NCBI GenBank assembly: GCA_963850305.1
Contig: CAWKKR010000007.1
Coordinates: forward strand, 1,024,001 to 1,088,000
Source: an uncultured delta proteobacterium
GTDB lineage: Bacteria; Myxococcota_A; Polyangia; Polyangiales; Polyangiaceae
Direction: 5' to 3'
Length of the DNA stretch: 64,000 bases
The notes beneath the pieces were generated by a model. That model was given only the letters and a program-made list of their open reading frames with translations. It had not been told where the DNA came from and made no database searches. Shown here piece by piece: positions 4,401-8,442 of the stretch (positions within the stretch are counted from its first letter, which is position 1; each line of letters starts with the position of its first letter). Both the position numbers and the translations under genes were made by a program.

Positions 4401-4691
4401 GAAATACTTCGAGACGACGATGTCGGTCGCCAGCTGGGACCATCCGGAAGGGATCTCTGCTCCCTCCATCTTGAAGACGACCGAGCCATCGGGATTGTTG
4501 ATGACGCTGCGGCGGCGCTCCCAGACGACCTCGTCGAGCGGTGCAACCCCGGCGGTGCTGTAGCGACGGTCGACGACGATGCCTTTGCGCTTCTTAGCGC
4601 GCTGTTTGGCATCTGCTCCGGTGGCCTGAGACGCTTGTCCCTGAGCACTCTTCATCGATCTGACCTGCCCCACGATCTCTGATTGCGCCAT
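1422..4691 (-). CDS. nrdJ: Vitamin B12-dependent (class II) ribonucleotide reductase
   Basis: Motifs [38 protein letters not shown] and YRDGCK, plus a C-terminal TSCPD-like region and CxxC..CxxC zinc ribbon. ATG at 4691 follows GGAGG. Confidence 0.95.
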
Positions 4692-4974
4692 TTTTCCTGC
4701 CTCCGTCCACAAAAGTGGGGACACACTTCCCCGCTGGAACCCGACGGCCACGCCGCCCTCCGTACACACACCTGGGTCGTTTGGCTGGTCGTGAGACCCG
4801 CCCTGCTTCTTTGCCCGGTGGATGGGGCGCCAAACGGCGCTCCACCTTCGAGACCTGGACTACCCGCGAACTACCCTGACCGACGACTCCGCTTTCTCTG
4901 TCGCGCAGTGATTTCCGATTAACGAAGTGACCTGCTTCGATGATCAGGCGTCAACCGAGCGAGCTGCCTTCGTA

Positions 4975-5021
4975 CCCCAACTTATTGGGCGGCGACAAGA
5001 AAAAACCACTACAGATAGGGA
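4975..5021. promoter_or_regulatory. Tandem NrdR boxes upstream of nrdJ
   Basis: CCCCAACTTATTGGGC (4975-4990) and CCACTACAGATAGGGA (5006-5021) resemble the NrdR consensus acaCwAtATaTwGtgt. They start 31 bp apart, the typical tandem spacing, upstream of an RNR gene. Confidence 0.8.
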
Positions 5022-5193
5022 AGTCCTCACAAACACTGAACAATCCTGCACCGTCTCCACAGGGTCTTCGGCGGCGCCTCGAGCTGAACGCAAGCTCTCC
5101 CCCGAGAGCCCTCAATCTCTCCCGCGGGTAGCCACGGTTTATCCCCAGGAAGCGAGCGTTTCGACCCGCCGCCGGGTGCGAGGGCATAGGAAA

Positions 5194-5268
5194 GGGGGCC
5201 TTGGCTGCCTTGCCCCCGCGGCTCGCTTCGCGACCGCTCCCCCGCCGCCTTCGGCGCGCTCGCTGCGC
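5194..5268. repeat. Dispersed GC-rich REP-like repeat, copy 1
   Basis: GGGGGCCTTGGCTGCCTTGCCCCCGCGGCTCGCTTCGCGACCGCTCCCCCGCCGCCTTCGGCGCGCTCGCTGCGC is nearly the reverse complement of 58174-58248. Confidence 0.85.
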
Positions 5269-5338
5269 TCGCGTAGTTCCGCGGCTCTTTGATCCCTCGG
5301 GGACGACGTGCTCGTCGATGCGGAACTACTAGGAAGCT

Positions 5339-6571
5339 CTACGCCGCATGAGGTTTGATCTCGACTTCGCAGCCGAGGTCGGTCAAGCGGCGGACGAGGC
5401 GTTTGATGGTCTTGCTCTGGTCGCGGCGGTCGAAGTGATGGGGTCCGAGGTCGCGGTAGGGAGTGCCGTCGCGGAGCATGTAGAAGGCGGCGGTGAGCAT
5501 CGATGCGGCGACGGCCAAGATCGCCTTCTTTGCTCCACGGCGGGACTTGAGCCGGAGAAACTGGGCTCGAAGGTAGCTTTCCTTCGTGCGCACCGCGGCC
5601 CAGGCGGATGTGACGAGCGTCGTCTTGAGCCAGTTGGCGCTCTTGCGGACGCGCGTCGAGCGACGCTTGCCGGCGCTCTCGTCGTTGCGGGGGCAGAGGC
5701 CGGCCCAGGACACGAGGTGTCCCGCAGACGGGAAGCGCGACATGTCGACGCCGATCTCCGCCACGATCACGTTCGCGACGATGTCACTCACTCCCGGCAT
5801 CGTCGTCAGGATCTCGGCGTGCGCCCGGATCGGCTCCAGCGCTTTTCCCGCAGCTGCATCGATCTCGGCCAGGGCCCCTTCGAGCGAGCCGATGACGCCG
5901 AGATGCAGCTTCAGCATGGCTCGGTGATGAGGGGTAACCCGCCCGCGCAGCGCTTCGATCAAGTCGGCCCTCTTCTTGCGCGCGGTACCGACCGCGAGAT
6001 CGGCAAGGCGCTCGGGGTCATCTTCTCCGGCGATGAGAGCGGCGAGCATCGCCCGGCCGCTGGTCCCGAGCACGCTGGACAGGACGCTCGCGACCTTGAT
6101 GTTCGAGTCCTCGAGCGTTTTCTGTATGCGCAGCGTGTGCTGGGCGATTTCTCGCACGAGCTGCTTGCGCGTTCGAGTGAGATCGCGCAGCTCCTGGATT
6201 CGCGCAGGAGGCACGAAACTGCTGCGGATCAGCCCGTGCGCGAGCAGATCGGCGATCCACGTCGCGTCGTTCACGTCGGTCTTGCGCCCTGGCACGTTGC
6301 GAATGTGCTGGGCGTTCGCGAGCACGAGTTCGAAGCTCCCTTCGAGCATGTGCCAGACCGGCTTCCAGTACACGCCGGTGGCCTCCATCGCCACGTGGGT
6401 CACGCCGTGCTCCTCGAGCCATTCCGCCAGCTCGAAGAGGCTACGTGTGGTCGTGCCGAACGTTCGGACCTCGCGCCGCGTTGGTTCGCTGACGCAGCGC
6501 ACGCAGGCAACGACGCTATCCTTGTGGACGTCGAGGCCCGCGCAACGGGGATACATGACTTCCATGACCAT
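5339..6571 (-). CDS. IS110-family transposase/recombinase (RuvC-like DEDD domain plus Tnp domain)
   Basis: GLDVHKD, MEATGVYWKP and KTDVNDA supply the DEDD residues; SWAGLCPRNDESAGK is the C-terminal catalytic-Ser region. AGGAGG RBS precedes the start. Confidence 0.97.
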   Translation of the reverse strand: MVMEVMYPRCAGLDVHKDSVVACVRCVSEPTRREVRTFGTTTRSLFELAEWLEEHGVTHVAMEATGVYWKPVWHMLEGSFELVLANAQHIRNVPGRKTDVNDATWIADLLAHGLIRSSFVPPARIQELRDLTRTRKQLVREIAQHTLRIQKTLEDSNIKVASVLSSVLGTSGRAMLAALIAGEDDPERLADLAVGTARKKRADLIEALRGRVTPHHRAMLKLHLGVIGSLEGALAEIDAAAGKALEPIRAHAEILTTMPGVSDIVANVIVAEIGVDMSRFPSAGHLVSWAGLCPRNDESAGKRRSTRVRKSANWLKTTLVTSAWAAVRTKESYLRAQFLRLKSRRGAKKAILAVAASMLTAAFYMLRDGTPYRDLGPHHFDRRDQSKTIKRLVRRLTDLGCEVEIKPHAA

Positions 6572-6584
6572 CTCCTCCTTTCGG

Positions 6585-6815
6585 CGCGTCGAGAGGAGCC
6601 CTCGTCATCGAAGTCTACTAGGCGTGCTCCCGGATCTTTCGACCCGCGGTCACAATTCGGGGTGCTCGCAGGGCTCCGGGTCCATCTACTGAACGGGTTC
6701 TTGGCACCAAGTCACGGCCGACCTCGTTCCCGACGCCGCGGCAGGATACACTCGACTCCACCGTCCACGCGACGACCCGAGCTTCATGCTTCGGGGAAGG
6801 CGCTCTCGCCGATGG
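6585..6815 (-). ncRNA. Putative bridge RNA of the IS110 element (boundaries approximate)
   Basis: Non-coding left end with exact junction copies: CATCTACTGA 6683-6692 = 6817-6826, and CTACTAGG 6615-6622 = 5326-5333. Each lies inside a short stem (ACCCG/CGGGT and GGAGC/GCTCC). Confidence 0.65.
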
Positions 6816-6837
6816 GCATCTACTGAGCCTGCCGAGA

Positions 6838-8442
6838 TCAGGTGCCTTCGACGCGCGGGAGCTCGATGGCGGCTGTCGGATCCTGGGGGATGGTGGTTTT
6901 CGTGACGAACTCGTGTTCGGCGTCGACGATCTTGACCGTGCCGAAATGGCTGAGGGGCTTCCCGAGCCGTGCAGCGTCGCCTGCGACGACGATGAGCGCT
7001 TGGTTCTGTTTGAAATACTGACTCGAAAATTCGAAGACGTTGTTCTTCGTGATGCCGCGAACCGCCTCGCGGTACGTGTCGTAGTAATCGACCGGTAAGT
7101 CGAACACGCCCAGATCGCTCGTGAGGCTCGCGATCGAGGACACCGTGTCGACGCCGACGAGGAACACGTCCGACAGATAGTGCGTCGCGATCTCGACCTC
7201 GTCGTCCGTCGGCGGCGCCTTGCCGATCGCGTCGAAGTGAGAAAGGAGCGCGTCGAGAGTGAGCCCGGCCTTGGCCGTCTGCGTCCCTGCGGACAGGACG
7301 ATCGGCACGGGCCCGTGAGCGAGCGGTTCGACCGTCGAGCGTGTGCTGTACGCGAGCGATTGCTTCTCACGCACATCGAGGAACAAGCGTCCCGCAACGC
7401 CGCCGCCGAGGATCTGGTTCGTCACGCGAAGAGCGGGCCATTCGGGGCTTTTCCGCTCGGGCCCAAGTGTCGCGACGAAGACGTCCGCCTGCGGACTCGC
7501 CGGTCTATCGACGAGGAAAACCACGGGCGCGGGCGGGCGCGGGAGCGGAGGTGCAAAAACCGGCGCGTCGGGCGCATCGCCGGACCACGTCCCGAAGGCG
7601 CGCTTGGCTTCGTCGCTGGCCGTCTTCTCATCCACGTCACCGGCGAGGACGAGGAATGCGTTCTTGGCGGTGAACTGGCGCTTGTGCCAGTCCTTGCAGT
7701 CGGCGAGACGTATCCCATCAATCTCCTTCGCCGTCGCGTCGTACCGCGAGTAGGGGTGCACGCTCGTGGGCAGGTCGAAAAGTTCGCGGTAAAGCACCAT
7801 CGACGCGACCCAGCCCCCGCTGGTGCGGGCGAGGCTCGAGACGCGGTCCATTTCGCGCCGCTTCAGCTTCTGGAATTCGCCGAAGTCGAACCGTGGCTTC
7901 AGCGCGACCGCCGCGAGGATGTCCATCGCTTCCGGGAAGTGGTCCTTCGTGACCGCCATCGTGATGCGTGTGGAGTCGCGATCCGTCGTGACGTCGAGAT
8001 CCGACCCGAGCGACTCGGCCGCGTCGAGGAGCGCACGACTCGGCCACTTGCCGGCACCACCGGCCTTGAGCAACTCGCCCGCGACCGCCGCGAGTCCTGG
8101 CTTCGAACCGTCCGTCGCCGAGCCGCTCCTCACCACCAGCTCGAGCTGTACGAGCGGTAGAGCGTGTCGCTCCACGATTCGCACGAGAAGTCCCTTGTCC
8201 AGGGTCACGTCCTTCACGGCCGGGAACTTCCAGTCGGGGGTCACACCCGGCGGGGGAACGGTGGCGAGCGGATCGGGCGCCGTCGCCGTCGGTGCGACCG
8301 GAGGGACCGCGCTTGCCACCGGCGGGGAAGCAGGTGTCGGCGGCGCTGCCGGCGGCCGCGAGGGCGCTGCCGAACAGCCCGTGAGCATCAACGTTGCGGC
8401 GACCCGTCGAAAGGTCGAGGCGGTCGTGGGCCAGCGTCTCAT
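6838..8442 (-). CDS. M16 family peptidase, non-catalytic subunit, probable lipoprotein
   Basis: Lipobox LTGC, Pro-rich linker, M16 motifs (PGLA, LGGGVAGRLFLDVREKQSLAYS), no HXXEH. Overlaps the stop of its partner gene. Confidence 0.88.
   Translation of the reverse strand: MRRWPTTASTFRRVAATLMLTGCSAAPSRPPAAPPTPASPPVASAVPPVAPTATAPDPLATVPPPGVTPDWKFPAVKDVTLDKGLLVRIVERHALPLVQLELVVRSGSATDGSKPGLAAVAGELLKAGGAGKWPSRALLDAAESLGSDLDVTTDRDSTRITMAVTKDHFPEAMDILAAVALKPRFDFGEFQKLKRREMDRVSSLARTSGGWVASMVLYRELFDLPTSVHPYSRYDATAKEIDGIRLADCKDWHKRQFTAKNAFLVLAGDVDEKTASDEAKRAFGTWSGDAPDAPVFAPPLPRPPAPVVFLVDRPASPQADVFVATLGPERKSPEWPALRVTNQILGGGVAGRLFLDVREKQSLAYSTRSTVEPLAHGPVPIVLSAGTQTAKAGLTLDALLSHFDAIGKAPPTDDEVEIATHYLSDVFLVGVDTVSSIASLTSDLGVFDLPVDYYDTYREAVRGITKNNVFEFSSQYFKQNQALIVVAGDAARLGKPLSHFGTVKIVDAEHEFVTKTTIPQDPTAAIELPRVEGT

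What the first reader, a model, noticed from the sequence alone, without database searches (positions are those of the whole stretch)
5326..6826. IS110 element whose non-coding left end carries copies of both its junctions: candidate bridge-RNA recombinase with readable guides
Seen: read on the minus strand, the left junction is GGCTC-AGTAG-ATGCCC and the right junction is TTCCT-AGTAG-TTCCGC. The ~250-nt region upstream of the transposase contains first TCAGTAGATG (6683-6692, identical to the left junction) and then CCTAGTAG (6615-6622, identical to the right end plus core), each inside a short stem. CCGAATT (6654-6660) is a 5/7 candidate for the right-target guide. Established: IS110 recombinases such as IS621 use a non-coding bridge RNA with a target-binding loop followed by a donor-binding loop. 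Inference: this is a myxobacterial member with an AG/TAG-type core, target about CTCAGTAGTTCC and circle junction CCTAGTAGATGC. I could not find a convincing right-donor guide, so the loop design may differ from IS621.
Basis: partly seen in the sequence, partly recalled or inferred. Interest (0 to 1): 0.85.

Follow-up and report, generated by a model that had tools for sequence, protein, structure and literature searches.

The report
Mirror-order bridge RNA with mini-parasite
This is a real RNA-guided jumping gene of a known family, but its target-reading guides lie in the opposite order to the textbook case, and a small protein-less element appears to borrow its machinery and has even jumped into the guide RNA gene itself.

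Summary
Observation confirmed. The 1.5-kb IS110 element (8 near-identical copies in the genome) has a 2-nt AG core. Its leader encodes a conserved two-loop bridge-type RNA (predicted 6736-6586) whose guides covary with the junctions across homologues: 6692-6688 tracks the left target, 6621-6617 the right end. That order is the mirror of IS621 and matches IS1111-group RNAs, although the RNA lies upstream as in the IS110 group. 6685-6684 behave as handshake bases. No programmable second donor guide was found; a 5-bp inverted repeat (+34/-5) covaries between the ends instead, with the same geometry as ISPpu9. The right flank in 7 of 8 copies is a ~130-bp non-autonomous element (59 copies) with IS-type ends. 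It prefers the guide's target and has inserted into the guide itself in 2 of 8 copies. Closest precedent: ISPpu9/MITEPpu9. This scan noted reversed guide order earlier on other DNA. No RNA or activity data. New variant of a known kind.

The parts
6822..6826 (-). Left target arm (host DNA, TCAGT), 12 nt after the stop of an M16 peptidase gene
   Evidence: 7 of 8 copies have TC before AGTAG, the eighth is offset by 3 nt; covaries with RNA 6692-6688
6820..6821 (-). Left core AG (CT on the non-coding strand)
   Evidence: present at both ends in 8 of 8 copies; neighbours vary with the guides in homologues while AG stays
6781..6819 (-). Left-end module: first bases AT, small hairpin, and pentamer GAAGC (6785-6781) 34 nt after the core
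   Evidence: pentamer is the reverse complement of the right-end pentamer in 46 of 57 loci, in four variants; same layout in the ISPpu9 A box (by eye)
6743..6748 (-). Conserved -10-like hexamer (TATCCT); inferred internal promoter starting the RNA near 6736
   Evidence: TAnnnT at this offset in 60 of 77 loci, 0 of 77 in a control window; no full sigma-70 consensus found; function inferred
6586..6736 (-). Predicted bridge RNA (~151 nt): outer stem 6736-6728/6594-6586 enclosing a target loop and a donor loop
   Evidence: 37 pairs on 40 homologues: 90% of cells paired, 26 pairs with changes on both sides, 0 of 500 shuffles as high, slid controls 33-56%; expression not shown
6710..6716 (-). Right-target guide (6716-6712) plus core-facing CT, on the 5' side of the target loop
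   Evidence: complement of right-flank bases 1-3: 80 of 141 against 36 expected in 47 loci; holds after collapsing to 16-35 clusters
6684..6692 (-). Left-target guide TCAGT, core AG and two handshake-type bases (AT); also the site where a mini-element sits in 2 of 8 IS copies
   Evidence: kappa 0.83-1.0 with left-flank bases -5..-1, n=52; 6685 and 6684 equal the element's first two bases in 73 of 77 each; insertions
6654..6660 (-).
   Evidence: no covariation with the right flank or with the element's left end; 6656 is an invariant A facing a base that is T in 69 of 77 loci
6615..6622 (-). Donor guide matching the element's right end plus core
   Evidence: kappa 0.66-0.88 for 6621-6617 with right-end bases -5..-1, n=67-68
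6572..6579 (-). Ribosome-binding-site-like AGGAGGAG
   Evidence: sequence
5339..6571 (-). IS110-family DEDD recombinase, 410 aa; D14, E63, D99, D102 and S299 align with the IS621 catalytic residues
5328..5337 (-). Right end: pentamer GCTTC (5337-5333) and donor arm CTAGT (5332-5328)
   Evidence: identical in 8 of 8 copies
5326..5327 (-). Right core AG
5188..5325 (-). Non-autonomous mini-element: IS-like 45-nt head, palindromic body, IS-like right end (here without its own right core)
   Evidence: 59 heads in the genome; head aligns by eye with left ends of IS homologues; pentamer at +34/35 in 27 of 27 parsed complete copies

Best explanation
An active bridge-RNA IS110 element of the ISPpu9/ISArsp3-like branch. 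An RNA of about 150 nt, made from an internal promoter in the left end (inferred), binds the recombinase (inferred from the family). Its first loop reads the target, with the right-target guide on the 5' side and the left-target guide on the 3' side (shown by covariation). Its second loop reads the element's right end (shown). Read on the non-coding strand, the geometry is that of IS621: CT core, guide then core then handshake bases. So the recombination sites are mirrored relative to the gene, and first-strand cleavage should fall on the non-coding strand (inferred). The left end is read mostly without RNA programming, through a fixed module and a 5-bp inverted repeat, probably by protein (inferred). 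Any DNA that carries that module and the right end can be moved. A ~130-bp mini-element does so and spread to about 59 sites. Each insertion creates the best match in the genome to the IS target loop, so the IS lands in front of it and the pair can later travel together. Because the guide is a DNA copy of the left target plus core, the RNA gene is itself a half-matched target and has been hit.
For: Guide-junction covariation. Compensatory RNA structure. Conserved -10-like hexamer 7 nt before the outer stem. Catalytic residues intact, 8 copies differing at 10 of about 1500 columns. It is the only PF01548 family in the genome, and no Y1/RAYT transposase was found (genome 95% complete). Solo mini-elements follow TC in 19 of 46 cases against 44 of 2734 background AGTAG sites. 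Of 68 TCAGTAG sites, the 11 best matches to the right-target guide are all mini-element left junctions (3.5 of 5, against at most 2.5 for the 43 others). Identical 125-bp inserts lie in the guide of two IS copies with AGTAG on both sides. ISPpu9 has an AG core, the same end geometry and IS+mini modules with circles shown by experiment. Half-match insertion has been reported for IS621.
Against: No expression, binding, circle or empty-site evidence for this element. The single-sequence fold is not significant, and RNAalifold recovered only part of the proposed structure, with other pairs in the target loop. The right-target guide is loose (about 55% matches at three positions). In this genome the right flanks of 18 complete mini-elements do not match it (1,5,3,7,9 of 18). 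The 11 top-ranked sites are one repeated sequence, so that ranking is a single observation. The IS's own first base (A) mismatches the invariant A at 6656. The core-facing bases of the 5' target guide are CT in only 44 of 82 loci. Full-length mini-elements also occur in two congeners where no close recombinase was found, so most copies may predate this IS.
Confidence: 0.75

Rival explanations
1. IS621-order RNA, with CCGAATT as right-target guide aimed at the repeat head.
For: CCGAATT can pair with AG-TTCCG of the repeat head in this one element.
Against: No covariation with the right flank in 60 loci. It lies inside the donor-loop stems. A different segment does covary.
Confidence: 0.05
2. 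IS and mini-element are neighbours in 7 of 8 copies only because one composite unit was copied (or homogenised by recombination), not because the IS repeatedly targets mini-element heads.
For: IS-adjacent heads are closer to each other than random sets (2 of 20000), share diagnostic variants, and one head variant follows the IS haplotype 3 against 4. ISPpu9 makes such composite circles.
Against: The window's mini-element lacks a right core, and at least two other IS-adjacent arrays lack a clean right end. Heads differ by up to 9% while IS copies differ by under 1%. A 95%-identical IS from another metagenome contig also precedes a mini-element (L071). Not exclusive with the best explanation.
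Confidence: 0.35
3. The repeat is a REP/REPIN-type or DDE-MITE element spread by another enzyme, with a 5-bp target duplication, and the IS merely uses it as a target.
For: Palindromic body with a GTAG...CTAC hairpin. 70 of 192 body units are not near a detected head. 3 of 9 complete copies with a variant left 5-mer show the same variant on the right.
Against: No Y1 transposase in the genome. No terminal inverted repeats. 4 of those 9 have the consensus on the right, and 12 of 24 consensus-left copies differ on the right, which is unlike a duplication. The head is homologous to IS left ends and keeps the +34/35 pentamer. Insertion sites match the RNA guide.
Confidence: 0.12

Closest known systems
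ISPpu9 / MITEPpu9 (ssr9) of Pseudomonas putida (PMC12288879; abstract, Introduction, first parts of Results and Discussion, supplement passages read)
   Same: IS110 group, AG core, 43-nt left box with a hairpin and short right box, non-autonomous module downstream of tnp in most copies plus solo and tandem copies, native promoter in the left end. Its A and B' boxes carry a complementary pentamer at +35 and -5 (my reading by eye). Its cluster representative shares the TGVYW, GRKxDV and WxGLCP motifs (by eye).
   Different: No guides are mapped in that paper (0 hits for 'LTG' or 'binding loop'). MITEPpu9 encodes an sRNA and has 8 copies; here there are 59 palindrome-filled copies, and insertions into the guide itself.
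IS621 bridge recombinase (PMC11208160, PMC11208158, PMC13626964; passages read)
   Same: RNA upstream of tnp, target loop then donor loop, 2-nt core, handshake bases 3' of a core-pairing guide, DEDD plus Ser active site.
   Different: Mirror polarity: core CT on the non-coding strand and top-strand complement 5' of the bottom-strand guide. About 5+3 target bases rather than 7+2. One programmable donor arm. Extra hairpin in the donor loop. Distant protein (E 1e-12).
IS1111-group seekRNAs, e.g. ISEc11, ISPa11, ISKpn4 (PMC11187229; passages and one Results section read)
   Same: Order of target matches: top-strand complement first, bottom-strand match second; asymmetric sub-terminal inverted repeat.
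   Different: Their non-coding region is usually downstream of tnp, their repeats are 7-17 bp and their proteins 330-350 aa. Here the RNA is upstream, the repeat is 5 bp and 34 nt from the left core, and the protein is 410 aa.

Membership tests
IS110 family bridge recombinases | RuvC-like DEDD domain plus Transposase_20 domain with catalytic Ser | tested here: met
IS110 family bridge recombinases | Short core at both ends, no target-site duplication or terminal inverted repeats | tested here: met
   AG core in 8 of 8 copies; flanking bases follow the guides
IS110 family bridge recombinases | Structured non-coding RNA whose loops covary with target and donor | tested here: met
IS110 family bridge recombinases | RNA is expressed, binds the recombinase and is needed for recombination; circular intermediate | not testable with these tools
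   only DNA contigs were available
IS621-type (IS110 group) bridge RNA | RNA upstream of the recombinase gene | tested here: met
IS621-type (IS110 group) bridge RNA | Left guide (bottom-strand pairing) 5' of right guide; CT core on the coding strand | tested here: not met
   order reversed and core AG
IS621-type (IS110 group) bridge RNA | Four programmable guides | tested here: not met
   three covary; none found for the element's left end in 77 loci, whose first two bases are nearly invariant
IS621-type (IS110 group) bridge RNA | Handshake bases | tested here: met
   target loop: 73 of 77 at each position; donor loop: no covariation, first base A in 59 of 60
IS1111 group | Top-strand complement precedes bottom-strand match | tested here: met
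IS1111 group | Long non-coding region downstream of tnp, 7-17 bp sub-terminal repeats, 330-350 aa protein | tested here: not met
   253-nt leader, 13-nt right end, 5-bp repeat, 410 aa
ISPpu9-like branch | AG core, A/B-box geometry, shared protein motifs | tested here: inconclusive
   all agree by eye; no alignment or tree with ISPpu9 itself was run
MITEPpu9-type non-autonomous IS110 module (mini-element) | Both IS-type ends, no transposase, solo, tandem and IS-linked copies | tested here: met
   46 solo, 6 tandem, 7 IS-linked
MITEPpu9-type non-autonomous IS110 module (mini-element) | Mobilised in trans by the IS recombinase | tested here: inconclusive
   indirect only: site preference and insertion into the guide
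REP/REPIN with RAYT | Associated Y1 transposase | tested here: not met
   0 PF01797 matches in a 95%-complete genome

The most novel reading that the evidence does not exclude
A large branch of IS110 elements (48-95% identity, many phyla, probably including ISPpu9) uses a three-guide, mirror-polarity bridge RNA. It cuts the non-coding strand first and recognises one donor arm through a hairpin-spaced inverted repeat instead of RNA. This looseness lets mini-elements hijack it, turn into its preferred landing pads and disable its guide by inserting into it: a natural record of self-targeting that may limit IS spread.
Probability: 0.35. Interest if true: 0.8.

Novelty: new variant of a known kind. 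Interest (0 to 1): 0.58.

Why it matters
The published rule (PMC11187229) ties guide order to family: reversed order in the IS1111 group (RNA downstream), IS621 order in the IS110 group (RNA upstream). This branch combines an upstream RNA with the reversed order, so anyone reprogramming it, or ISPpu9 if it is confirmed as kin, by IS621 rules would edit the wrong bases. The map of three guides, handshake bases, promoter and minimal ends (about 45 nt left, 12 nt right, as the mini-element shows) makes it directly testable. The inserts in the guide are genomic evidence for half-match insertion in nature. The short, loose target makes it a poor precision tool but a good model for relaxed recognition.

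Tried and rejected
Rfam: no relevant match in 4500-7500. Single-sequence RNA fold: uninformative. 5-bp target duplication and TAG core: rejected. An early idea that loop 1 binds the left junction through a right-donor guide at 6654-6660: rejected, no covariation. A pseudoknot between GGTGC and GCACC: no compensatory changes seen by eye in A1, not pursued. Sigma-70 scan: no full promoter. Sequencing runs: no RNA holder listed; four DNA contig sets of one study showed no joint across the element and no circle junction, and contigs cannot show absence. Orthologous peptidase loci in congeners were too diverged, or shown at the wrong end, to give an empty site. Dropped rows: of 122 homologue loci, 104 leaders (window included) had at least 230 nt upstream; 89 were distinct; L144 and L066 were dropped as unalignable, L048 also, L054. 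The window's own row was mis-parsed; it was excluded from the quoted 47-locus figure and corrected. 31 of 90 raw repeat heads were discarded as false hits. Paper searches for 'IS110 + bridge RNA + AG core' and 'IS110 + bRNA + AG dinucleotide' gave 0 papers; two searches listed none describing reversed order with an upstream RNA. [quoted passage not shown] S12 of 2026.10.21.760802, which shows deviating bridge-RNA models) could not be seen and may already show this layout.

Full report
Observation. The ORF at 5339-6571 is an IS110 recombinase by Pfam and NCBIfam cut-offs, with the DEDD and Ser residues aligned to IS621. The genome holds 8 copies, which are its only PF01548 matches and differ at 10 of about 1500 columns. 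All 8 begin AGTAG-ATGCCC and end TTCCT-AGTAG. The left flanks are unrelated; 7 of 8 right flanks are a dispersed repeat and one is unique DNA, which fixes the right end.

Homologues. Scans of genome and metagenome collections gave 41 and 80 loci (the latter kept the best 80 of 204). With one congener locus and the window, 104 leaders were long enough, 89 were distinct and 87 were used. They come from many phyla, and relatives also occur on proteobacterial plasmids. Junctions were parsed from fixed end motifs without using the guides (left junction in 52, right end in 68, right flank in 64). Each DNA position was then scanned against every RNA column. Left-flank bases -5 to -1 equal RNA 6692-6688 (kappa 0.83-1.0). 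Right-end bases -5 to -1 equal 6621-6617 (0.66-0.88). The AG between them does not vary in most loci, so the core is AG (AT in a Dehalococcoidia group).

Guide order. The best signals for the right flank form a complementary diagonal at 6712, 6713 and 6714 (kappa 0.55, 0.42, 0.40), upstream of the left-target guide. After removing a tight Acidobacteria group and three loci next to repeats or tandems, 80 of 141 bases match against 36 expected, with a permutation maximum of 57. With loci collapsed to 35, 22 or 16 scaffold clusters the excess stays about twofold, 0 of 3000 permutations each. The two bases 3' of the left guide's AG equal the element's first two bases in 73 of 77 loci each, including 4 A/A and 7 C/C cases. 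This is what IS621 handshake guides do (PMC11208158, passages) if the DNA is read on the other strand. The element is thus IS621 in mirror image relative to its gene. PMC11187229 (passages) reports this order for IS1111-group RNAs and the opposite for the IS110-group element tested.

RNA structure and ends. A model with an outer stem, a target loop and a donor loop is supported on 40 homologues: 90% of cells paired, 26 of 37 pairs with changes on both sides, above all shuffled and slid controls. The short inner and closing stems vary little, so they are weakly tested; RNAalifold found only the long stems, and the window sequence alone folds no better than shuffles. A TAnnnT hexamer precedes the outer stem in 60 of 77 loci (0 of 77 in a control window), which suggests a start near 6736. 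No RNA column covaries with the element's left end beyond the handshake bases. Instead, a pentamer 34 nt inside the left end is the reverse complement of one 5 nt inside the right end in 46 of 57 loci. The ISPpu9 A and B' boxes show the same spacing (supplement passage, by eye), and its cluster representative shares the branch's protein motifs (by eye).

The repeat. It has 59 heads: 46 solo, 6 tandem and 7 behind an IS. The head resembles IS left ends and keeps the pentamer at +34/35 in 27 of 27 parsed complete copies (6 of 33 not parsed); the match to the right pentamer is perfect in 7 and 4 of 5 in 16. The body is palindromic and often tandemly expanded. The end copies the IS right end. The flanking 5-mers do not behave as a duplication, although 3 of 9 variant cases agree on both sides, which I cannot explain. 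Solo copies follow TC in 19 of 46 cases against 1.6% of background sites, as the left-target guide predicts. Their right flanks do not follow the present right-target guide, which fits half-match insertion or older guides; that guide differs even among homologues of 93-95% identity. In two IS copies an identical 125-bp mini-element sits in the left-target guide with AGTAG on both sides; one insertion later copied is as likely as two. Full-length relatives of 90-93% occur in two congeners (only five candidates per genome were scored). No Y1 transposase was found.

Why IS and repeat are neighbours. Mini-element left junctions are the best target-loop matches among 68 TCAGTAG sites, and the window's mini-element lacks a right core, which favours insertion of the IS at an existing head. 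Shared variants among IS-linked heads favour later movement as a unit, as shown for ISPpu9, or homogenisation. Both probably happened.

Comparison and verdict. It works like IS621 and belongs to the IS110 family, but it fails the IS621-type tests for guide order and four guides, and the IS1111 tests for RNA position and repeat length. The IS+mini-module arrangement is known from ISPpu9, and half-match insertion from a preprint (10.64898/2026.08.31.748434, abstract and one section). Also read without finding this layout: 10.1101/2025.10.25.684509 (abstract, first part of Results, passages), PMC13626964, 10.64898/2026.08.14.744561, 10.1101/2025.05.14.653916 and 10.1101/2024.06.21.599552 (passages), and 10.64898/2026.10.21.760802 (two sections and passages; it reports many deviating bridge-RNA models in a supplement I could not see). 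Four searches found no paper on reversed order with an upstream RNA, but unseen figures may show it. Unchecked notes of this scan report reversed order in other genomes; I saw them after reaching my reading. Everything about expression and activity is inferred. New variant of a known kind; interest 0.58.

Noticed in passing
window:1178-1409: 128-bp unit repeated 1.8 times at 99% identity between the end of ORF 143-1159 and the class II ribonucleotide reductase gene; a recent duplication or an assembly artefact.
   Followed up: no
window:56423-57031: 18-bp tandem repeat, about 34 copies, probably a low-complexity coding tract.
   Followed up: no
G000, e.g. C5:298941 and C8:864850: The ~70-bp palindromic body unit of the mini-element expands to arrays of 8 or more; 70 of 192 units genome-wide are not near a detected head, and similar units occur in other genera of the family. 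Possibly an older REP-like repeat captured between IS ends.
   Followed up: partly
L035-L038, L059: Dehalococcoidia homologues with an AT core; tandem IS-IS junctions appear in L036 and L038.
   Followed up: partly
L039, L041, L046, L119, L121-L123, L126-L131: An Acidobacteria-type group shares long conserved sequence on both flanks and matches its right-target guide over 6-8 nt, so it targets a conserved repeat or another element.
   Followed up: partly
L116:1-20: A mini-element-like right end directly precedes the left junction of a 94%-identical IS, the reverse arrangement to the window.
   Followed up: partly
G000:C8:864889-866097: This IS copy has an extra base near the end of the recombinase gene and a left junction offset by 3 nt; the extra base may be a sequencing error.
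   Followed up: no
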